From IMG/VR virus record IMGVR_UViG_3300021400_002728, positions 101,154-165,153 of that record: 64,000 nt of DNA; one strand, given 5' to 3'. The notes below the pieces were generated by a model that saw only the letters and a list, made by a program, of their open reading frames with translations, did not search any database and was not told the DNA's origin. Source of the DNA: a virus (Duplodnaviria > Heunggongvirae > Uroviricota > Caudoviricetes). The translations under genes and the position numbers were made by a program. Positions within the stretch are counted from its first letter, which is position 1. Each line of letters starts with the position of its first letter. Positions 3,440 through 28,346 of this stretch are shown here, one piece after another.

Positions 3440-3569
3440 TCGAGAGAGTAGGATTCGAACCTACGATACGCTGTTTCCCTCAAATTTTTTGAAAGATTGC
3501 TGTCTCAATCACAATAATGATCACGAATAAATTTATATGACAGCTGCCTTACCACTTGGCTATCTCTCG
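3440..3569 (-). ncRNA. tRNA-like RNA with a long ACAGCAA-module insert in the anticodon loop
   Basis: Acceptor CGAGAGA/TCTCTCG, D arm GCCAAGTGGTAAGGC, T arm GTAGG-TTCGAAT-CCTAC, anticodon stem GCTGT/ACAGC enclosing ATCAT-TATT-GTGATTGAGACAGCAA; no assignable anticodon. Confidence 0.7.
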
Positions 3570-4548: not shown

Positions 4549-4622
4549 GTATGTTGATTGGACTCGAACCAACGACCTCCCGGCATGTAGACCGAGTGCT
4601 CTCCCGACTGAGCTACAACACA
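4549..4622 (-). tRNA. Atypical tRNA-Val(TAC)-like with 8-nt anticodon loop
   Basis: Cloverleaf; CTCGG-TCTACATG-CCGGG. Confidence 0.6.
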
Positions 4623-8107: not shown

Positions 8108-8263
8108 ATATTAGTTTAGGCTGTTCGTCAAACTCCAGTTAGCAATTCAAACCCAACTTAGACTTACCGGCTAAGAGCGCTTCTAGCTTGCATAGGGCGA
8201 TTTACACGCCGCGTCTTAACTCCACTCTGCAGCAGTATCTAAGAATTACAGTTTGCACCTAAG

Positions 8264-8335
8264 AGTCGATGGAGGGAGTCGAACCCTCGATACTGGTTTT
8301 GCAGACCAGGGCCTTAACCACTTGGCTACATCGAC
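8264..8335 (-). tRNA. tRNA-Cys(GCA)
   Basis: CTGGT-CT GCA AA-ACCAG. Confidence 0.95.
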
Positions 8336-9334: not shown

Positions 9335-9553
9335 TCGTCTATATAGACGATTAAATTTGTATTTCTTTAATTAAGGAACCGTCACTGCTATCTTTCACTC
9401 CTACGACGGTGCACCTAACAGGAGATGTAGCATTTACTGGCGTTCAATCTTTTACCGTTTACAACTTGCTCCAAGATTGAACCAAAGGCGGCTGGAGCCA
9501 TGAAACAAAACTTGTAATCCAAAATGATAAAAATGGCAGATTATCATTTTGCA

Positions 9554-17264: not shown

Positions 17265-17366
17265 TTGGTAAAGTCTGATTCTTTACCAGTGCTAAATCGT
17301 TTCATAGTAGCATTCTCCTTTATGTTTTATTATATCAAACTATTTTCAAATGTAAATAGTTTTTAG

Positions 17367-17438
17367 CTGGCAAGGTGGGGATCGAACCCACGACCTGACG
17401 GTTAACGGCCGCCTGCTCTACCGCTGAGCTACATGCCA
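17367..17438 (-). tRNA. tRNA-Asn(GTT), C33
   Basis: GGCGG-CC GTT AA-CCGTC. Confidence 0.85.
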
Positions 17439-17447
17439 ATATTTGAA

Positions 17448-17532
17448 GGACACATTGTTTACGGAATCGAACCGTTTATTCTGATTTGCAGTCAAAAATT
17501 TACCAAAATTAGAATATTTGCTGTGAGTGTCC
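17448..17532 (-). ncRNA. ACAGCAA-module RNA carrying D-like, Cys anticodon and T arms
   Basis: GGACAC-TCACAGCAA...TTTGA-CT GCA AA-TCAGA...ACGG-TTCGATT-CCGT...GTGTCC. Confidence 0.7.
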
Positions 17533-17536
17533 CAAG

Positions 17537-17619
17537 CGCCGTACACAGGATTCGAACCTGCAAGTCCTTTCAGACCAACTGTTTTCAAGACAGCTCCCTC
17601 ACCAACCCGGACATACGGC
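17537..17619 (-). tRNA. tRNA-Ser(TGA)
   Basis: GCTGT-CT TGA AA-ACAGT, long variable arm, G73. Confidence 0.85.
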
Positions 17620-17771
17620 ATATAATACACATTACCTATTCTCATGTGTGGAAATCAATAGGCTTGTCATCTATCAATGGGAGTCGAACCAAACTGCTGC
17701 AGCAGTCTTTCATACTATCCACACCTTGATCCTCATCTTAGATGTACACAATCTGCAGTTTAATGTGTAAG

Positions 17772-17854
17772 CGACGTGCACAGGATTCGAACCTGCAAAG
17801 CCTTACGGCCCAACTGTTTAGCAAACAGCTCCCTCAACCACCCGGACACACGCC
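17772..17854 (-). tRNA. tRNA-Ser(GCT)
   Basis: GCTGT-TT GCT AA-ACAGT, long variable arm, G73. Confidence 0.85.
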
Positions 17855-18478
17855 ATTTTGAATAATTTTCTGAGAACTCCAGTGTTCTCCAGTTGTCACA
17901 TGGTTAGCTCTGACGTACTTTATAATAGATTTATTAAAGTCATCATATGAATAACCAGAGGACAACCTCATAACAATTCCTTCACCATTATGGTTACTTA
18001 CATCTGTTATTGCTTTGTCAATGTTTGCTTTACTGTAAATACCTTTGTATAAAACTGGTACAGTAATTAAATTAAGTTCTTGTGCTCTCTTAACTGTATC
18101 TTCCCAAGAAAGACATTGTTCACCATTCCATATTGAGAATACCATTAAGTAGCTTGGTAAATTTTCATAATAGATCGAGTGTTTAGCAAATAAATATTCT
18201 GCACATACTCTTTCGTCTTCATTCATAAGATACTGAAATGATCTGATGTAGTTTAATAACCATGAATGATACTCTTTATGGGCTGAATCAATACTTCGTG
18301 CATGACATATATCTTTATAGATTGAAGTATTTTCACCATCCATCTTTTCAGTAATTACTACTTCTTTACCTTCAAAATAAGGTTCAAAGTCAGTGAAGAT
18401 CTTATCATCTGAACTTCGTCCAGGTGAGAATGGAAAATGATATGTTCTTGGATATTTATATCTTTTCATCTTTCTCAT
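17834..18478 (-). CDS. ATP-dependent RNA ligase (Rnl2-like nucleotidyltransferase domain)
   Basis: YKYPRTYH, motif I EKMDGEN, AEYL, FSIW, EGIVMR, KYVR motifs. Confidence 0.85.
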   Translation of the reverse strand: MRKMKRYKYPRTYHFPFSPGRSSDDKIFTDFEPYFEGKEVVITEKMDGENTSIYKDICHARSIDSAHKEYHSWLLNYIRSFQYLMNEDERVCAEYLFAKHSIYYENLPSYLMVFSIWNGEQCLSWEDTVKRAQELNLITVPVLYKGIYSKANIDKAITDVSNHNGEGIVMRLSSGYSYDDFNKSIIKYVRANHVTTGEHWSSQKIIQNGVCPGG

Positions 18479-20826: not shown

Positions 20827-22290
20827 TTAAGCAGCTACTGTAACTGCTGCATAACGATCACTAAGGATCACATCGAGCATTGCTTCAAGAGGTGTCTTGT
20901 TAAGGCTCTGAATTACATTCTTGAATGTAGTTGCAGAATGTCCAGATACAAGCTGTACACCCTTATTAGTAGCATCTGCGTGGAAAGTATCAGACTCGCT
21001 GTTTACATTCCAGAATACTACGTTAGGAATCTTATATCCAGCGGCATCAAATGCCTTAGCATACTTCTCATAGAAGGTATCTGCACCATGTACGCTATAA
21101 GAATCAATCTGCATATCTGAAATTACAATGAGTGCTTCAGGTATCTCTTCAGCAGGAGTCTTATTAGCAATAGCAGTATCAAGGATAAGCTTGAATGCCG
21201 CGTCAAGATTAGTGTTATCATTGATAGTTCTGATATTTCTAATCTTATCAATAAGAGTTGCACCAGATACCTTAACTAAAGTAGGTCTTGAGCTAAAGGT
21301 CATGAAGTAACCTCCAAATGCACCCTTATTTCTCTCAGCAAAGTATAATGCGAGACCTACAGAAGATGCAATAGGAAGTCTATTGCAGCAAGTCATAGAT
21401 CCGGATGTATCAGCCATAACAAGAATATTCTTGTTAGGATCTACATAATCAGGAAGTGCCTTCCACTGAGCTTCAAGAACCTTACTATCTTCACCAAACA
21501 TGATCTTCTGAATGATGTCGTAAGGATAAAGTGTGCCGGCCTTAATCTCAACCTTACCAGAAGTTACATCTTCAAGGTACTTACTAAATCTATCCTTGTC
21601 CTTAAGACCGAAGAGCTTACGATACTTCATCATTGCGTTAGAAGGAATCTTATCATACGCAATAGTATCAAAGTTATTTGCAGAGACCTTAATCTCTACG
21701 ATGTCAAGGTACTTACGAAGAGCCTTAAGATCCTTCTTGAATGCCTTAACATTCTTATATCCGAGCTTCTGAGAAGTCAAGATACCCATCTTACGAGTTT
21801 CAGGAGATGAAGCATCAGGAGTCTTAATCCACTTAGCAAGAAGTGAAACAGGCTGATCCTTCTTCATATTCTTGACATCCATCTTGAACTGCTTCTTCAT
21901 TGCAGCCCACATCTCGTCTTCGCAGGCAGTTCCGACCAGACAATAGAGATCGTCGAATCTACCATAGAATCCAATTAATGGAATGTTAGGCGCGACGATC
22001 TCCTTGTGCTTATTTGCTGCATACGCAAGCAAAGTTCGGAAGGTCTCTCTTTCACCAAGTCCTTCTCTGATATCTCTACCATAGAAAAGGATCTTAGCGG
22101 CAAGCTCTTTGTTATCAGCGATTGCCTTCTCAAAGAGGTCAATCTTCCGATCAGAGTCTGCCTTTCTTAACGCGCCGATAGTTGAATATAAATCGACAAG
22201 TGCATTTCCTGAGGATTTCAGGCAAATGGCACCATTTTCCGTATAGGTAAATGATGTTGTTTCGCTGAGTTGTCTGTTCATCTTTGGCAT
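20827..22290 (-). CDS. DUF2828-family TROVE/Ro60-like protein with C-terminal vWA domain
   Basis: TENGA, RDIREGLGER, SLLAKWI, YDKIPS.AM, LYPYDI, MIDAS DTSGSM, ISDMQ, VFWNV motifs. Confidence 0.8.
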   Translation of the reverse strand: MPKMNRQLSETTSFTYTENGAICLKSSGNALVDLYSTIGALRKADSDRKIDLFEKAIADNKELAAKILFYGRDIREGLGERETFRTLLAYAANKHKEIVAPNIPLIGFYGRFDDLYCLVGTACEDEMWAAMKKQFKMDVKNMKKDQPVSLLAKWIKTPDASSPETRKMGILTSQKLGYKNVKAFKKDLKALRKYLDIVEIKVSANNFDTIAYDKIPSNAMMKYRKLFGLKDKDRFSKYLEDVTSGKVEIKAGTLYPYDIIQKIMFGEDSKVLEAQWKALPDYVDPNKNILVMADTSGSMTCCNRLPIASSVGLALYFAERNKGAFGGYFMTFSSRPTLVKVSGATLIDKIRNIRTINDNTNLDAAFKLILDTAIANKTPAEEIPEALIVISDMQIDSYSVHGADTFYEKYAKAFDAAGYKIPNVVFWNVNSESDTFHADATNKGVQLVSGHSATTFKNVIQSLNKTPLEAMLDVILSDRYAAVTVAA

Positions 22291-22495: not shown

Positions 22496-23302
22496 ATGAT
22501 GCTGTAACTATATTCTTAATTCAAATGGAAAGAGTAAAGTTATAATAGTTTGCTGTAAGCATCACAATTTTGAGTCGTCCACTAAAGCAGGACCTCTCTA
22601 ATTAAAATGATTGACACGCTTTTCTTTGTAGGATTTTTTCGACAAGCGTTACACTCGATTTCCTAGTATACTCATTAGCTATACCAGACTGATGTCTAAT
22701 CAACACTTACGCGTTCATTTGACCACTATTAACATTTGATCTTGTTTGGTTTGCTGTAGTCAATCACAAAATGCAATTGTAAAGGTACAATACCTAAATG
22801 ACGAGAATAACAAGATAATTTTATGAAATTTTCTGTTGTTATTTTTATTGCTGTAATCGTCACAAGCAGGTAAGTTAATAAATGACTGACAAGGAATGTT
22901 TGATGGGATCTTTTGGTCATTACCTATGCTACACCATTTCCCGACATGTTAGGTACATGCCAACCTAATTTTTATTTACCCAAAAAATAAAATTAAGAAG
23001 ATTTGCAATTGTATTGCTGTTAAGTCAGTCACGACTTTGTAAAAATATGATTGTCACGGACTCTTCCTCGGATTTTCTGGTGGCATACCGCTCTTTACCA
23101 TTTCCGGATAGATCATTTGAATCGGATCTTTTGGCTGATACTATCATGTCTTCCATTTCCGAATAGGTCGTTAATCAGATTTTTTAGTGACCTATCAGTA
23201 TACATTTTCTGGATTGTTAAGCAATCAGCTTTTGCGCCTTTATCGCACACATACTGTTATCATCTCTTTAATATAAGAATGATTTGCTGTTAAGACAATC
23301 AC
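22496..23302 (-). repeat. Cluster of five ACAGCAA-module RNAs (22496-22565, 22687-22767, 22798-22863, 22957-23032, 23047-23302)
   Basis: Each starts GTGA(C/T)N2-6 then N2-ACAGCAA and closes on a complementary 3' strand, mostly ending (G/A)TCAT; interiors differ. Confidence 0.75.
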
Positions 23303-24075: not shown

Positions 24076-24875
24076 GATATTACCTCCGAAGAGGTAACAG
24101 GTTTACAAAATACGCTGAGATAATTGGCGTTTGTACATAGCATCTATAGTCGTTGGAAACTATCTATCACACAGTCGATTAGACTGTAGCTATGAATGGC
24201 ACTAATCTTGTGAAGATTAGCAGACACTTACCAGAAGCTTCATAGATTTCATTTTGTCACATTCTTCCTTGCGGGATTCACAGCTTGCAGGCTGTTAGAG
24301 TTGCAACTACTCTTACTTCTCTCATGTATCACCTTGCGAGTTTTACATGCCACCATATTGCAGATGGATAAGCCATTTTTCGGCTTTCTGGTCGGATGCA
24401 CTTTTGCATGTTGTTAATAAATAACATTTGGGTTTTATATTATCAGTATAATCCAAATCTTTATTTCTAATAAAGAATTTTCCATTGAACTACGAGGCAT
24501 CCGTTTGGACACCAATACCTTTTGAGTACTGTCCATCCATCGTAATCCTGCTTGTCTTGAGTCGACTTACTCGATTATTCTAGACCGCACTTTCGTGTTG
24601 GATCTGTCATAAAAGTAAAATTAGCACTTATCATATCCCTATGACTTGCACCAAAGATCTACCTATCGGTCTTTATCATTTCTAATAAAGGGAACATTTT
24701 CCATTATTCCGTTTGCTTCGACTCCTCTGCAACTTTGCCGTTGGAGTTACGTTCAAACTAGATAGTGTAGGTTTTCCGCTGCACTGTATTGCTACAGTCG
24801 AGAAAGGTTTGGCTCCTTACTCTTTATCCCTGTTACCAGGTTTATCTAACGACCCGAAACCGACCGTTATATTAA
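24076..24875 (-). ncRNA. Large (~800 nt) ornate ncRNA, GOLLD-like
   Basis: ORF-free, hairpin-dense with many GNRA/GCAA loops, UUCG hairpin at 3' end, heads a phage tRNA array; size and context fit GOLLD better than ROOL; family not verified. Confidence 0.6.
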
Positions 24876-25269: not shown

Positions 25270-26463
25270 TTAGTCTTTACGCACAGCCTTCATTTTTACT
25301 TTATTTTCATACATTTGAGCATCAGCGCGTACAAATACATCATGAAACGAAGTATCTCTTTCCGCTGAATATACAGCATATCCAGTTGCGGCAGAAATAT
25401 TTTCCCACTCATTAGATTTGCCAGTTTTAGTTATAGACGATCCTATATTAGTAAGTAAGAAACTAAGTACGTCTACATTCTTACCAGATATAATTACAGC
25501 AAATTCATCTCCACCTATTCTAAAGCAATTACAACCAGTAAACATTGATCGTATATCATCTGCTAAGATCTTAAGTGCAATATCGCCCTTATCATGACCA
25601 TAGGTATCATTCATCTTCTTTAAGAAGTTAAGATCTATTATAATAAGAGAGAATTTAGCTATACCATTCTTAATATCATCATTTAGTTTTTCTTCATATT
25701 TTTCAAATGCGTTACGATTAGATAGACCAGTCAACCCATCTATATACATAATTTGTTCAGCCTGTAGAGCTTTAGCGGTCCAATATATTGAAGATCCTAA
25801 TACTGAATATTCAGATATATAAATAAAACATATAATTAAAAATAGTGGTACAAATAACTTATTACCTGGTACTATATTAGCTGCATTTGCAATATAGGTT
25901 ATTGCAGAAAAACTAAATAAAGCTGAAATAGGTATAATTATATAGTTCTTTAACTGGCCATTTGATACTTTTAGCATGCCTTTAAACGGTCGTTTTATAA
26001 AGACTACAAATAAGGTTGATATTAAGCTAAGTACTATAAGTTTAACTGCAATAAAGAATAATATATTCTTAATAGTATATGGACCATTTACTGGGTCAAA
26101 TAAATTAAGTCTTGAACCAATTATCTGATCAGTTGTACCGCAAAACAAAAATGTACTTACTACAATTATAAGTGTTGTAGTGCAGTTAATAAATATATTA
26201 TGTGATAATGTTTCTTTGCATAATGCATGCCCAAGTATACAAAGTGCAACACAATATAATACTAATGGTATGGCATCATTCATTATAAAGAAGCTATACC
26301 AAAACATAGTTAACGCTAACAATATAAAAACTGATCCAAACCACAAAAATGCATGTGTTTTCTTTGAATACTTCGGAGTTGTAAGTACGGACGTAAGTAA
26401 AGATGCATATGTAAAATTTAATATGCTACTTAACGACCATAATATGACTATCGAAGTTTCCAT
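25270..26463 (-). CDS. Multi-TM diguanylate cyclase (GGDEF)
   Basis: About 7 TM helices then DGLTGLSNR, DLNFLKKMNDTYGHDKGD, RIGGDEF. Confidence 0.92.
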   Translation of the reverse strand: METSIVILWSLSSILNFTYASLLTSVLTTPKYSKKTHAFLWFGSVFILLALTMFWYSFFIMNDAIPLVLYCVALCILGHALCKETLSHNIFINCTTTLIIVVSTFLFCGTTDQIIGSRLNLFDPVNGPYTIKNILFFIAVKLIVLSLISTLFVVFIKRPFKGMLKVSNGQLKNYIIIPISALFSFSAITYIANAANIVPGNKLFVPLFLIICFIYISEYSVLGSSIYWTAKALQAEQIMYIDGLTGLSNRNAFEKYEEKLNDDIKNGIAKFSLIIIDLNFLKKMNDTYGHDKGDIALKILADDIRSMFTGCNCFRIGGDEFAVIISGKNVDVLSFLLTNIGSSITKTGKSNEWENISAATGYAVYSAERDTSFHDVFVRADAQMYENKVKMKAVRKD

Positions 26464-26480
26464 ATAATGTCCTCCTCTAA

Positions 26481-28346
26481 TTAACTTGCATTATGAGAGG
26501 ATAAGAAATTCAAGAAATCTTCCATAGGAAGTGGTTTTGAAAAATAATATCCCTGAATATACTCAATATTAAGATCTAACATGGCCTCAAGTTGTTCTCT
26601 AGTTTCGATTCCTTCTGAGACAATGTTAAGATTCATATTATGCATAGTATGAGTCATTCCCTCTAATACCTGTTTTACTTTTTTATTGTTGAAATAACCT
26701 TGAGTAAAACTATAATCAAACTTGATATTTTGTACAGGAAAATCAACAAGATAATCAAGATTTGATCGTCCTGTTCCAAAATCGTCTAATGAAAATGTTA
26801 TTCCCTGTTCAAGTAATTGATTTATGTTTTTAATAAGATTATTTCTACTTTTATTCTGTGCTGTCTCAGTAATTTCGAGATTTATCATAGATGGATCAAT
26901 ATTATATTTTTCAATCATATCAATAATAAATTTGGCTGGATTTTCAAAATCAAACTGAGCTGCAGATAAGTTTACTTCTATATTATTAAGACCTAGTTGC
27001 TTAGGATCATGCTCAGAAATAAACTGACACACTTTCTCAAATATTCTCATACCCAATGGAATAATTTGACCAGTTTCTTCAGAAATTGGAATAAATACTC
27101 CAGGTGGAGTAATACTACCGTCAAGATTTCTAATTCGTACTAATGCTTCAGCAGCAGAAAATTTATGTGTCTTTACATTATAAAAAGGTTGATAGAATAC
27201 TTCTACTCTATCATCATTAAGAGCGTCTTCAATGAGATCGTGAACCTGATTATATTTTCTCAAGTCTGCGATAACGTCTTCATTAACTTCAATTATTTCG
27301 TCCTTTAATGACTCATTCATTTGAATAAAATTAAAGAACTCTTCAGGATTAATGAAATCTAGTCCATTTGGAATAACTATATAATGTAAAGTGGTTAAGT
27401 CTTCTTTTGAATTAGACTTAATATCTTTAAACTTTTCTAAATGTGCCTTCATTCGATATTTGTCATTAAATGCAACAACAAATAAATCATCATCTAACTT
27501 AAATACTGGATCTGAACCTAAACTATTTAAGGCCTGTGATGCCATAAATCTAGCTTTATTCTTAAGTTCTATTTCAACCATTTGAGATAAGTAATTAAGC
27601 TTAACCACAAATGCTGAAAATGGTGTCTTAAACTTAAACTGATCATTTATGTAATTAGTAAAACCAATATAATTAAACGTATTAGTATAAGTATCTAAAT
27701 ATACATTTGGATTTTCTAACTGTGTATAAAGTATAATTACACTAAATGCAGACGCAAATCCAATTAAAAGAAGTTCGGGAACTATGAATTGAATCAACAC
27801 ACAAACAAGCCAAATACCTTGCCATGTCATTATAGTTCTAAACTTTTTATATGACATTTCTTTTCTTTTTATAATAGCTAAAGAAATTGTAGTTAAAATT
27901 AAAATGACAGCCAAGATATATGCTACTAGAGTAGATGCTCCGTATGAATATGCTTGTCTGCCATCCATGGCGTATGATATAGGCAATGCTAATATCATCA
28001 GTTCTCCGAACGTAAAAATTGCATGCAGTATTCGTTTTATATGTTTATATTTATCATTAATTAGTAATTCAGTCATTACATATACATATCCGAGATATCC
28101 TTGTAGGACTAATGAGAATATGTATAACTTACATACTAATTTGGTTATAAATGGACTAAATCCGCATTTTGTTGAATAATAAATGCAGATTACTGATACT
28201 ATATCTAGTACCAACATTGCGATACAACTATATAAGGATCGCATAAACAATATTCTATTTGTTAACTTCAGTTTCTTTTCTCGCATGAATAGTACGTATA
28301 TGACTAGTACTATAAATAGAGAACAGCACTGTAATTCAATATTCAT
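26481..28346 (-). CDS. Multi-TM EAL c-di-GMP phosphodiesterase with degenerate GGDEF domain
   Basis: FYQP, AEALVR, EVNLS, LEITE, DDFGTG, KFD, EGIE, QGYYFSKP. Confidence 0.92.
   Translation of the reverse strand: MNIELQCCSLFIVLVIYVLFMREKKLKLTNRILFMRSLYSCIAMLVLDIVSVICIYYSTKCGFSPFITKLVCKLYIFSLVLQGYLGYVYVMTELLINDKYKHIKRILHAIFTFGELMILALPISYAMDGRQAYSYGASTLVAYILAVILILTTISLAIIKRKEMSYKKFRTIMTWQGIWLVCVLIQFIVPELLLIGFASAFSVIILYTQLENPNVYLDTYTNTFNYIGFTNYINDQFKFKTPFSAFVVKLNYLSQMVEIELKNKARFMASQALNSLGSDPVFKLDDDLFVVAFNDKYRMKAHLEKFKDIKSNSKEDLTTLHYIVIPNGLDFINPEEFFNFIQMNESLKDEIIEVNEDVIADLRKYNQVHDLIEDALNDDRVEVFYQPFYNVKTHKFSAAEALVRIRNLDGSITPPGVFIPISEETGQIIPLGMRIFEKVCQFISEHDPKQLGLNNIEVNLSAAQFDFENPAKFIIDMIEKYNIDPSMINLEITETAQNKSRNNLIKNINQLLEQGITFSLDDFGTGRSNLDYLVDFPVQNIKFDYSFTQGYFNNKKVKQVLEGMTHTMHNMNLNIVSEGIETREQLEAMLDLNIEYIQGYYFSKPLPMEDFLNFLSSHNAS

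What the first reader, a model, noticed from the sequence alone, without database searches (positions are those of the whole stretch)
17448..17532. tRNA-Cys-like body mounted on the ACAGCAA stem in place of an acceptor stem
Seen: D-like loop, UUUGA-CU GCA AA-UCAGA and ACGG-UUCGAUU-CCGU arms enclosed by GGACAC/GUGUCC with the ACAGCAA bulge; a larger relative at 11385-11549 also has a GCA loop and T loop. This is the closest match in the window to a Y-RNA plan (protein-binding stem plus tRNA mimic). It should not be chargeable.
Basis: partly seen in the sequence, partly recalled or inferred. Interest (0 to 1): 0.7.

Follow-up and report, generated by a model that had tools for sequence, protein, structure and literature searches.

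The report
Phage tRNA-shaped partner RNA for Ro60-like protein
An 87-base RNA gene inside a giant rumen phage's tRNA cluster copies most of a tRNA but swaps the amino-acid-accepting stem for a conserved docking "handle"; across many phages this handle sits beside a gene for a Ro60-like ring protein, so it is probably an undescribed kind of Y RNA, not a working tRNA.

Summary
Window 17447-17533 (- strand) is an 87-nt RNA lying exactly between tRNA-Ser and tRNA-Asn. It has a 7-bp closing stem (P1), a 2-nt spacer, unpaired ACAGCAA, a short D-like hairpin with GG in its loop, a full anticodon-type arm (loop CUGCAAA), a T arm (ACGG-UUCGAUU-CCGU) and a 7-nt linker back to P1. ARAGORN and Rfam do not call it a tRNA. 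Only tRNA model positions 8-63 match (19.6 bits).

It is one member of a conserved family. An RNA-only pattern found it in 56 viral contigs (21 distinct sequences). P1 pairs in 100% of cells and six of its seven pairs show two-sided changes; the anticodon-type stem covaries too. The "anticodon" itself varies (GCA, UCA, GAA, GUA, GUU, GUC...), so "Cys-like" is lineage-specific.

In 50 of the 56 contigs a DUF2828/vWA gene follows directly on the same strand. The window's copy of that gene (20827-22290) is predicted to fold like Ro60. Best reading: a Y-RNA-like partner with a new handle and a new tRNA-mimic layout. Binding, RNA ends and charging are untested. This scan has flagged the same handle/Ro60-like system before, in at least 40 other genomes. 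I found no published description.

The parts
17447..17533 (-). Whole 87-nt handle RNA with an acceptor-less tRNA-like body. It is the only copy in the 394-kb genome.
   Evidence: Family covariance model R1 scores 82.3 bits, E 4e-13. It is the only match in the whole phage genome.
17527..17533 (-). P1 5' strand, GGGACAC
   Evidence: Pairs with 17447-17453. All 7 pairs are standard in all 23 family members, and 6 of the 7 show two-sided changes.
17518..17526 (-). 2-nt spacer UC plus the invariant unpaired ACAGCAA box (the 'handle')
   Evidence: ACAGCAA is invariant in the 21 seed sequences. The spacer is exactly 2 nt in 20 of 21. The strict handle pattern matches 9 times in the genome, all in the window's tRNA island on the - strand, against 1 match for the control.
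17498..17509 (-). D-like hairpin AUUU-UGGU-AAAU, with GG in the loop
   Evidence: A hairpin with GG in its loop occurs in 17 of 21 members, against 14% of shuffled bodies. The Rfam tRNA model aligns it to the D arm.
17479..17497 (-). Anticodon-type arm UUUUGA-CUGCAAA-UCAGAA (C32, U33, GCA, A37, A38)
   Evidence: 13 of 21 members keep the strict anticodon-arm format, against 0.8% of shuffles. All 6 stem pairs show two-sided changes. The triplet varies between phages.
17461..17475 (-). T arm ACGG-UUCGAUU-CCGU
   Evidence: Pairs in 100% of cells. Members found by the model and not by the seed pattern have covarying T stems: GCGGG/CCCGU in L014 and GAGG/CCUC in L053.
17454..17460 (-). 3' linker AAACAAU between the T arm and P1
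   Evidence: The family linker is AA(A) plus 0-5 nt, only about 1 nt in L021. A tRNA has no such linker.
17447..17453 (-). P1 3' strand, GUGUCCU
20827..22290 (-). DUF2828+DUF7788 (vWA) gene, 487 aa, the proposed protein partner
   Evidence: Pfam E 6e-39 and 2e-36. The AlphaFold2 model has pLDDT 89. The 12 PDB matches with the best E-values, ranks 1-13, are all Ro60/TROVE, E down to 1.4e-8, TM 0.47-0.61. The MIDAS residues D294, S296 and S298 are invariant. The genome has no Pfam TROVE gene.
17536..17619 (-). tRNA-Ser(UGA), ending 2 nt before P1
   Evidence: The same neighbours occur in relatives L010, L011 and L063.
17366..17438 (-). tRNA-Asn(GUU), starting 8 nt after P1
   Evidence: Processing of the flanking tRNAs would release the element with near-exact ends (inference).

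Best explanation
This is a stand-alone small RNA gene of the 'handle' family, defined by a 7-bp closing stem, a 2-nt spacer and unpaired ACAGCAA. I propose these RNAs are the partners of the phage's Ro60-like DUF2828/vWA protein.

This member belongs to a conserved subclass whose payload is a tRNA body without an acceptor stem: a D-like hairpin with GG, an anticodon-type arm and a T arm.

Proposed mechanism:
1. The RNA is transcribed with the tRNA array.
2. RNase P and RNase Z processing of the flanking tRNA-Ser and tRNA-Asn frees it.
3. P1 plus ACAGCAA docks on the Ro60-like ring, as the conserved stem and bulge of Y RNAs dock on Ro60.
4. The L-shaped tRNA mimic is displayed to tRNA-recognising factors, acting as a tether, gate or bait within the phage's tRNA and RNA-repair island.

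It is not a decoding tRNA.

Shown here, computationally: the conserved structure, the genomic linkage and the Ro60-like predicted fold. Inferred: protein binding, the L-shape, the processing route and the tether or bait role.
For: - Structure: P1 pairs in 100% of cells with 6 of 7 pairs changed on both sides. The anticodon-type stem covaries at all 6 pairs. Overall 90% of cells pair, against 68% in shuffles (0 of 500) and 33-47% in slid controls (independent count). The tRNA-format arms are far above shuffles.
- Not a tRNA: no ARAGORN call and only a local Rfam match to positions 8-63.
- Linkage: of 56 viral contigs found with an RNA-only pattern, 50 carry a DUF2828 gene directly downstream on the same strand, at 33-99% identity to one reference protein. 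The other six lie in tRNA arrays like this window.
- Reverse direction: 8 of the 9 loci fetched through the protein carry stem-plus-ACAGCAA RNAs within about 1 kb upstream of the gene.
- Protein: the 12 PDB fold matches with the best E-values are all Ro60. The genome has no canonical TROVE gene and no YrlA.
- Precedent: Y RNAs are encoded next to Ro60 and mimic tRNA (PMC4201824). Thermus phage phiLo Ro60 binds two upstream Y-like RNAs (PMC12135203).
- Context: an RNA ligase, a phosphoesterase and an HD protein lie in the same island.
Against: - No binding data exist. The link to the protein rests on gene neighbourhood and a predicted fold.
- In this window the element is 3.3 kb from the DUF2828 gene, not adjacent to it.
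- It lacks the Ro60-binding motif of known bacterial and phage Y RNAs (GNCGAAN0-1G, or CGAA).
- Of the 56 contigs, 34 carry DUF2828 genes at least 96% identical to the reference, so independent lineages number roughly a dozen.
- Transcription and RNA ends are not established. RNA-library contigs cover the element only inside long multi-tRNA contigs.
- The covariation alignment was fitted to the model.
Confidence: 0.6

Rival explanations
1. It is a tRNA mimic that acts without the Ro60-like protein. P1 would serve as a 7-bp acceptor-like stem, so the RNA is cut by RNase P and perhaps receives CCA. It then works as bait for host tRNA-targeting nucleases or tRNA-binding enzymes, or even as an unusual chargeable tRNA.
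For: - The anticodon-type arm keeps C32, U33, A37 and A38, and the T loop and D-loop GG are kept.
- P1 is 7 bp, and in L021 the T stem runs almost directly into P1.
- M. smegmatis YrlA, with a 7-bp acceptor-like stem, is cut by RNase P and gets CCA in vivo (PMC4201824).
- The variable 'anticodon' would fit an arms race with anticodon nucleases.
Against: - It does not explain the invariant ACAGCAA box or its tight linkage to DUF2828 genes.
- In most members a 9-nt 5' junction and a 2-8-nt 3' linker separate P1 from the tRNA body, which breaks the acceptor/T-stem stack that synthetases and the CCA enzyme measure.
- The phage already has a normal tRNA-Cys(GCA) at 8263-8335.
Confidence: 0.17
2. 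It is a cis-acting element, not a trans-acting RNA. It would be a 5' leader or operator through which the DUF2828 protein controls its own mRNA, or a processing or punctuation signal in polycistronic transcripts.
For: In most small phages the element ends about 15-30 nt before the DUF2828 start codon, next to the ribosome-binding site.
Against: - In this window, in relatives L009-L011 and L063, and in L029, L039, L047 and L073, it stands between tRNA genes with no ORF start nearby.
- A mere processing signal would not need a conserved anticodon-type loop plus a D-loop GG.
- Y RNAs upstream of rsr are likewise co-transcribed and then released (PMC4201824).
Confidence: 0.12
3. It is a decaying tRNA-Cys pseudogene that happens to lie in a tRNA array.
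For: It sits in a 40-gene tRNA array and has a GCA loop and a T arm.
Against: It is conserved over DUF2828 lineages only 33% identical to each other, with compensatory changes in three helices and an invariant non-tRNA box. The triplet is not Cys in most members.
Confidence: 0.02

Closest known systems
YrlA-type bacterial and phage Y RNAs bound by Ro60/Rsr (Rfam RF02553; Chen et al. 2014, PMC4201824)
   Same: A small RNA encoded beside a Ro60-type ring protein gene. A terminal stem with a conserved unpaired motif serves as the proposed docking site. The payload mimics tRNA, with T and D arms. The gene sits near RNA-repair genes.
   Different: - The partner is DUF2828, not Pfam TROVE.
- The motif is ACAGCAA, not GNCGAAN0-1G.
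- YrlA's docking stem takes the place of the anticodon stem, and YrlA keeps an acceptor-like stem-loop. Here the docking stem takes the place of the acceptor stem and a full anticodon-type arm is kept.
- RF02553 has no match in the genome.
Thermus phage phiLo Ro60 with Yrl1 and Yrl2 (PMC12135203; PDB 9KOP, 9L5Y)
   Same: A phage-encoded Ro60-type protein with partner RNAs encoded just upstream. The phiLo structures are among the top fold matches of the DUF2828 model.
   Different: Yrl1 and Yrl2 carry the CGAA motif in a bulge and are not reported as tRNA mimics. Sequence identity between the proteins is about 15-16% in the fold alignment.
Class I RNAs of dictyostelid amoebae (Rfam RF01414; Kjellin et al. 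2021, PMC7919456)
   Same: A short stem joins the 5' and 3' ends, followed on the 5' side by a conserved unpaired motif whose core is ACAGCAA. The first base is G and the remainder is variable. RF01414 aligns the stem and box here and scores 22 bits on a neighbouring handle RNA.
   Different: - The scores are far below the threshold of 41.5 bits.
- The element is 87 nt with a tRNA-like payload, against 42-65 nt.
- The host is a phage, not a eukaryote with a DUSE promoter.
- The known direct binder is the RRM protein Rnp1A.
- I could not test whether Dictyostelium has a DUF2828 protein.
Canonical tRNA (RF00005), specifically tRNA-Cys(GCA)
   Same: The D-loop GG, the 7-nt anticodon loop CUGCAAA, a 3-nt variable region and the T loop UUCGAUU.
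   Different: - No acceptor stem is contiguous with the T stem.
- A 9-nt handle stands where the 2-nt connector at positions 8-9 would be.
- The D loop has 4 nt and the T stem 4 bp.
- ARAGORN does not call it, and Rfam gives 19.6 bits against a threshold of 29.

Membership tests
Canonical tRNA (RF00005) | Full cloverleaf that reaches the gathering score or is called by a tRNA finder | tested here: not met
   ARAGORN makes no call. There is no Rfam hit at E<=1 in a 26-kb scan. A local scan gives 19.6 bits against 29, covering model positions 8-63 only.
Canonical tRNA (RF00005) | 7-bp acceptor stem stacked directly on the T stem, with a 2-nt connector at positions 8-9 | tested here: not met
   P1 is 7 bp, but 9 nt on the 5' side (UC+ACAGCAA) and 7 nt on the 3' side (AAACAAU) separate it from the body.
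Canonical tRNA (RF00005) | Anticodon arm with a 7-nt loop (U33, R37), and a T arm with a UUCRANY loop | tested here: met
   UUUUGA-CUGCAAA-UCAGAA and ACGG-UUCGAUU-CCGU.
YrlA / Y RNA (RF02553, RF00019) | Match to the family covariance model | tested here: not met
   No Y_RNA or YrlA hit in the window scans. RF02553 has no match in the whole genome.
YrlA / Y RNA (RF02553, RF00019) | Ro60-binding motif GNCGAAN0-1G (GGUCCGA in animals) near the 5' end (PMC4201824) | tested here: not met
   The sequence read has no CGAA outside the T loop. ACAGCAA occupies the conserved position.
YrlA / Y RNA (RF02553, RF00019) | Encoded next to a Ro60 (TROVE+vWA) gene | tested here: inconclusive
   The partner gene is DUF2828/DUF7788. 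It has a Ro60-like predicted fold but no Pfam TROVE match. It is adjacent in 50 of 56 contigs and 3.3 kb away in this window.
YrlA / Y RNA (RF02553, RF00019) | Bound by the Ro60 protein | not testable with these tools
   This needs an EMSA or RIP experiment.
Dictyostelid Class I RNA (RF01414) | Short stem joining the 5' and 3' ends, with a conserved 5'-most G | tested here: met
   P1 is GGGACAC/GUGUCCU and its first base is G. Features as defined in PMC7919456.
Dictyostelid Class I RNA (RF01414) | 11-nt motif (CCUUACAGCAA in the Rfam consensus) adjacent to the 5' stem strand | tested here: inconclusive
   The element reads ACUCACAGCAA, matching 9 of the 11 bases, including the whole ACAGCAA core.
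Dictyostelid Class I RNA (RF01414) | Model score at or above 41.5 bits (the authors used >=25 plus a stem), and length 42-65 nt | tested here: not met
   12.3 bits, E 6.6. Length is 87 nt.
Stem+ACAGCAA 'handle' RNAs next to DUF2828 genes (seen repeatedly in this scan; no published name found) | 7-bp covarying closing stem (R.U first pair, G-C third pair), a short spacer, then unpaired ACAGCAA | tested here: met
Stem+ACAGCAA 'handle' RNAs next to DUF2828 genes (seen repeatedly in this scan; no published name found) | Co-occurrence with a DUF2828/vWA gene in the same genome region | tested here: met
   The gene lies at 20827-22290. Family-wide, 50 of 56 contigs have it.

The most novel reading that the evidence does not exclude
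Stem+ACAGCAA RNAs together with DUF2828 proteins form a second, unrecognised lineage of Ro60/Y-RNA-type particles. It would span phages and eukaryotes, with the orphan Class I RNAs of Dictyostelium as its eukaryotic members. Within it, this subclass presents a complete anticodon arm and tRNA elbow on the ring protein as bait or adaptor for tRNA-targeting host defences or tRNA-repair enzymes.
Probability: 0.3. Interest if true: 0.85.

Novelty: new variant of a known kind. Interest (0 to 1): 0.68.

Why it matters
Ro60 and its Y RNAs are a conserved but poorly understood RNA-surveillance system. Its tRNA-mimicking bacterial Y RNAs have no known purpose.

This finding adds three things:
- a large phage-borne sister system with a different protein family (DUF2828, currently "unknown function");
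- a different docking motif;
- a different way of grafting a tRNA mimic onto the docking stem, replacing the acceptor arm where YrlA replaces the anticodon arm.

The layout keeps a full anticodon loop exposed and varies its triplet between phages. That gives a testable handle on what the tRNA mimicry is for. It would also give DUF2828 a function. It may also explain the Class I RNAs of social amoebae, which share the stem-plus-ACAGCAA design.

Tried and rejected
- A protein-pattern scan of viral contigs with the DUF2828 protein found no relatives. Exact-sequence look-ups and an RNA pattern worked in its place.
- MAFFT plus RNAalifold recovered only the T arm, because the 3' ends were out of register. 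I replaced this with a covariance-model alignment.
- My generic scanner for 'any 7-bp stem around ACAGCAA' was too permissive in this AT-rich genome: 34 of 55 sites, against 7 of 16 in the reversed control. I dropped it.
- RNA libraries: contigs from two runs of one study cover the element at 95-99% identity, but only inside contigs that also span a flanking tRNA gene (up to 590 nt). These show neither transcription nor RNA ends. No joints were reported across this stretch, so I have no evidence for or against circularisation or splicing here.
- The protein atlas returned only viral DUF2828 clusters, and a notes search found nothing. Whether Dictyostelium encodes a DUF2828 protein could not be tested.
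- Literature searches for DUF2828, and for ACAGCAA together with Ro60, TROVE or Y RNA, found no description of this system.
- Rejected readings: intron-containing tRNA-Cys (it would need two separate excisions, and a normal tRNA-Cys exists at 8263-8335), terminator (no U run), and CRISPR-like repeat (variable stems, no spacers).

Full report
**Setting.** The window is part of a complete 394-kb phage genome with direct terminal repeats. The RNA and DNA libraries that hold it are bovine gut or rumen samples. Window 3.4-24.6 kb, - strand, is a large RNA island. It holds 40 ARAGORN genes including a tmRNA, several tRNA genes with 50-60-nt inserts and a sub-threshold GOLLD-like RNA. Interspersed ORFs encode an RNA ligase, an RNase H-like protein, an HNH nuclease, an HD protein, a phosphoesterase and a 487-aa DUF2828+DUF7788 (vWA) protein at 20827-22290.

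**The observation.** On the - strand, 17447-17533 reads, 5' to 3':

| Segment | Sequence |
|---|---|
| P1 5' strand | GGGACAC |
| Spacer | UC |
| Box | ACAGCAA |
| Junction | AUAUUCUA |
| D-like hairpin | AUUU-UGGU-AAAU |
| Anticodon-type arm | UUUUGA-CUGCAAA-UCAGAA |
| Variable region | UAA |
| T arm | ACGG-UUCGAUU-CCGU |
| 3' linker | AAACAAU |
| P1 3' strand | GUGUCCU |

The element fills the gap between tRNA-Ser(UGA) (17536-17619) and tRNA-Asn(GUU) (17366-17438), leaving 2 nt on one side and 8 nt on the other.

It is not a conventional tRNA. ARAGORN does not call it. Rfam finds nothing at E<=1 in a 26-kb scan. A local scan aligns only tRNA model positions 8-63, D arm through T arm, at 19.6 bits against a threshold of 29. 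The single-sequence fold energy is unremarkable (z -1.72), so the case rests on comparison with relatives.

**A conserved family.**
- The strict pattern GTGAY-N4-9-ACAGCAA occurs nine times in the genome. All nine are in this island on the - strand, and the control pattern matches once.
- Orthologues of the element lie in the same tRNA-Ser/tRNA-Asn slot in related jumbo phages, with compensatory changes. One example is GGGACGU/GCGUCCU in L010.
- An RNA-only pattern (ACAGCAA, 30-60 nt, CGGTTCRAWTCCGTAA) matched 56 viral contigs, giving 21 distinct sequences.
- In my own count, all 147 P1 cells are standard pairs, against a mean of 106 when partners are shuffled. Pair 3 is invariantly G-C and pair 1 is G.U or A-U in 20 of 21. 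The spacer before ACAGCAA is exactly 2 nt in 20 of 21.
- A covariance model built from these sequences found further members outside the seed pattern. Their T stems covary: L014 has GCGGG/CCCGU and L053 has GAGG/CCUC.
- On the 23-member model alignment, 90% of cells pair, against 68% in shuffles (0 of 500 reach it) and 33-47% when partners are slid. P1 pairs at 100%, with two-sided changes at 6 of 7 pairs. All six anticodon-stem pairs show two-sided changes. This alignment was fitted to the model, which favours the structure. The independent P1 count agrees with it.
- The model finds exactly one copy in the whole phage genome.

**How tRNA-like is it?**
- Thirteen of 21 members keep a strict anticodon-arm format: a stem of at least 4 bp, a 7-nt loop [CU]U-NNN-R-N, ending 3-5 nt before the T stem. 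Only 0.8% of shuffled bodies do so.
- Seventeen of 21 have a short hairpin with GG in its loop, against 14% of shuffles. GG in a D loop and UUC in a T loop are the partners of the tRNA elbow. An L-shape is therefore plausible, but it is inferred.
- The triplet at the anticodon position is not conserved. It is GCA here and in L010 and L073, UCA in L009 and L053, and GAA, GUA, GUU, GUC, UAU, UGA or UUA elsewhere. 'tRNA-Cys-like' therefore describes this lineage only.
- The phage has a normal tRNA-Cys(GCA) at 8263-8335.

**Link to the Ro60-like protein.**
- In 50 of the 56 contigs found by the RNA alone, a DUF2828 gene starts a few tens of bases downstream on the same strand. These genes range from 33% to 99% identity to one reference protein. 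About a dozen lineages are independent, because 34 contigs are near-identical.
- The other six contigs place the element in tRNA arrays, as this window does.
- In the reverse direction, 8 of the 9 loci fetched through DUF2828 proteins carry stem+ACAGCAA RNAs just upstream of the gene; L014 has none there.
- An AlphaFold2 model of the window's protein (pLDDT 89, pTM 0.89) has only Ro60/TROVE structures among its 12 best-E-value PDB matches. These include Xenopus and human Ro60, D. radiodurans Rsr and Thermus phage phiLo Ro60, with E down to 1.4e-8 and TM 0.47-0.61 over the full length. Isolated vWA domains follow.
- The vWA MIDAS residues are invariant among 41 homologues.
- By sequence, the protein matches no solved structure. 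The genome has no Pfam TROVE gene and no YrlA.

**Most likely mechanism.**
- Known Y RNAs are encoded beside Ro60 and dock through a conserved stem with an unpaired motif. In bacteria they display a tRNA-like domain. In M. smegmatis they are co-transcribed upstream of rsr and then processed (PMC4201824).
- A phage Ro60 binds two RNAs encoded just upstream of its gene and engages host PNPase (PMC12135203).
- By analogy, I propose that P1+ACAGCAA is the docking site for the DUF2828 ring and the tRNA body is the displayed module.
- In this window the flanking tRNAs would provide the processing sites that free the RNA.
- The layout differs from YrlA. YrlA's docking stem replaces the anticodon stem and an acceptor-like stem-loop is kept. 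Here the docking stem replaces the acceptor stem and a full anticodon-type arm is kept.
- What the displayed tRNA mimic does is open. It could tether tRNA-handling enzymes, act as bait for anticodon nucleases, or gate the ring.
- The variable triplet within a fixed loop format fits a bait or adaptor role better than a single specific tRNA identity.
- I put 0.6 on the Y-RNA-like partner reading.

**Chargeability.**
- Absence of an encoded CCA is not informative, because tRNA-Asn, the neighbouring gene I read, also lacks one.
- The 9-nt and 7-nt junctions between P1 and the body break the acceptor/T-stem stack, which argues against aminoacylation.
- P1 is 7 bp, however. M. smegmatis YrlA, with a 7-bp acceptor-like stem, is cut by RNase P and receives CCA (PMC4201824).
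- End processing therefore cannot be excluded without experiment.

**Relation to Class I RNAs.**
- The local Rfam scan gave a weak hit to Dicty_Class_I_RNA (RF01414): 12.3 bits here and 22 bits on the handle RNA at 23176-23300.
- The alignment covers exactly the terminal stem and the ACAGCAA box.
- Class I RNAs are defined by a short 5'-3' stem, a conserved 5' G and an 11-nt motif next to the 5' stem strand. They are reported as unique to Dictyostelia and have no known mechanism (PMC7919456).
- The design is the same, but formal membership fails on score, length and context.
- I could not test whether Dictyostelium has a DUF2828 protein.

**The claimed larger relative.**
- Window 11381-11553 has a terminal stem (AAGAGUGUA/UACGCUCUU), a GCA-containing loop and a T-arm-like hairpin. 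It gives a 16-bit tRNA-Sec-like hit.
- Its box is ACAGCAG, which relatives do not conserve, and it does not match the family model.
- Kinship is therefore not shown.

**Expression.**
- Contigs from two size-fractionated rumen metatranscriptome runs cover the element, but only inside contigs that also span a flanking tRNA gene. No ends or joints can be read.
- The strain differences inside the element in those contigs are small insertions in the D-like region only. None falls in P1, the ACAGCAA box, the anticodon-type arm or the T arm.

**Prior notes and novelty.**
- After my own first tests I consulted the scan's notes.
- The stem+ACAGCAA/Ro60-like system has been flagged in this genome and in at least 40 others. 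I reproduced its main claims independently.
- I found no published description.
- I class it as a new variant of a known kind: a Ro60/Y-RNA-type system with a new protein family, a new docking motif and a new tRNA-mimic topology.

Noticed in passing
window 24112-24548 (-): A sub-threshold but significant match to GOLLD RNA (RF02032): 90.9 bits against a gathering score of 150, E 1e-22, over the full model length. It lies at the upstream edge of the tRNA island, next to tRNA-Pro.
   Followed up: no
window 3440-3569, 11554-11676, 11679-11802, 12135-12248 (-): tRNA genes whose anticodon stem carries a 48-63-nt insert. The insert consists of a hairpin (AUCAU-loop-GUGAU) followed by ACAGCAA (ACAGCUA in the fourth). 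This is the same handle with its stem closed by a loop, in a tRNA that keeps open acceptor ends, so it is a permuted arrangement relative to my element. 10451-10557 has an insert without the box.
   Followed up: partly
window 17620-17770 (-): The 151-nt 'spacer' between the two tRNA-Ser genes has a 9-10-bp terminal stem (UUACACAUUA/UAAUGUGUA) and a T-loop-like UGGUUCGACUCCCA, but no ACAGCAA. It may be another structured RNA, and it resembles 11381-11553 in plan.
   Followed up: no
window 17534-17768: One RNA-library contig (run X6) joins the 5' part of my element directly to position 17769, at the 3' end of tRNA-Ser(GCU). This suggests a strain variant that lacks tRNA-Ser(UGA) and the 151-nt spacer.
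   Followed up: no
window 13126-13197 and 4549-4622 (-): ARAGORN calls a suppressor-type tRNA with anticodon UUA (it would read UAA) and a tRNA with an abnormal anticodon loop ('ac'). ORFs in the window are nonetheless open under table 11.
   Followed up: no
window 25270-28346 (-): Adjacent GGDEF (397 aa) and EAL (621 aa) genes in a phage, conserved in relatives L010 and L011. The phage may interfere with host c-di-GMP signalling.
   Followed up: no
L012:9790-9865 (+): A handle-like RNA upstream of a DUF2828 gene has P1 GUGACCCU/AGGGUCAU but CCCGCAA in place of ACAGCAA. This may be a natural variant of the box.
   Followed up: no
window 9551-9912 (-): A phage-encoded tmRNA (138.6 bits) with tag peptide ANNVQMAA. 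A relative (L017) also encodes SmpB near its DUF2828 gene.
   Followed up: no
window 17834-18478 (-): The listed frame of the RNA ligase ORF (PF09414) overlaps tRNA-Ser(GCU) (17771-17854) by about 20 nt at its stop-codon (3') end.
   Followed up: no
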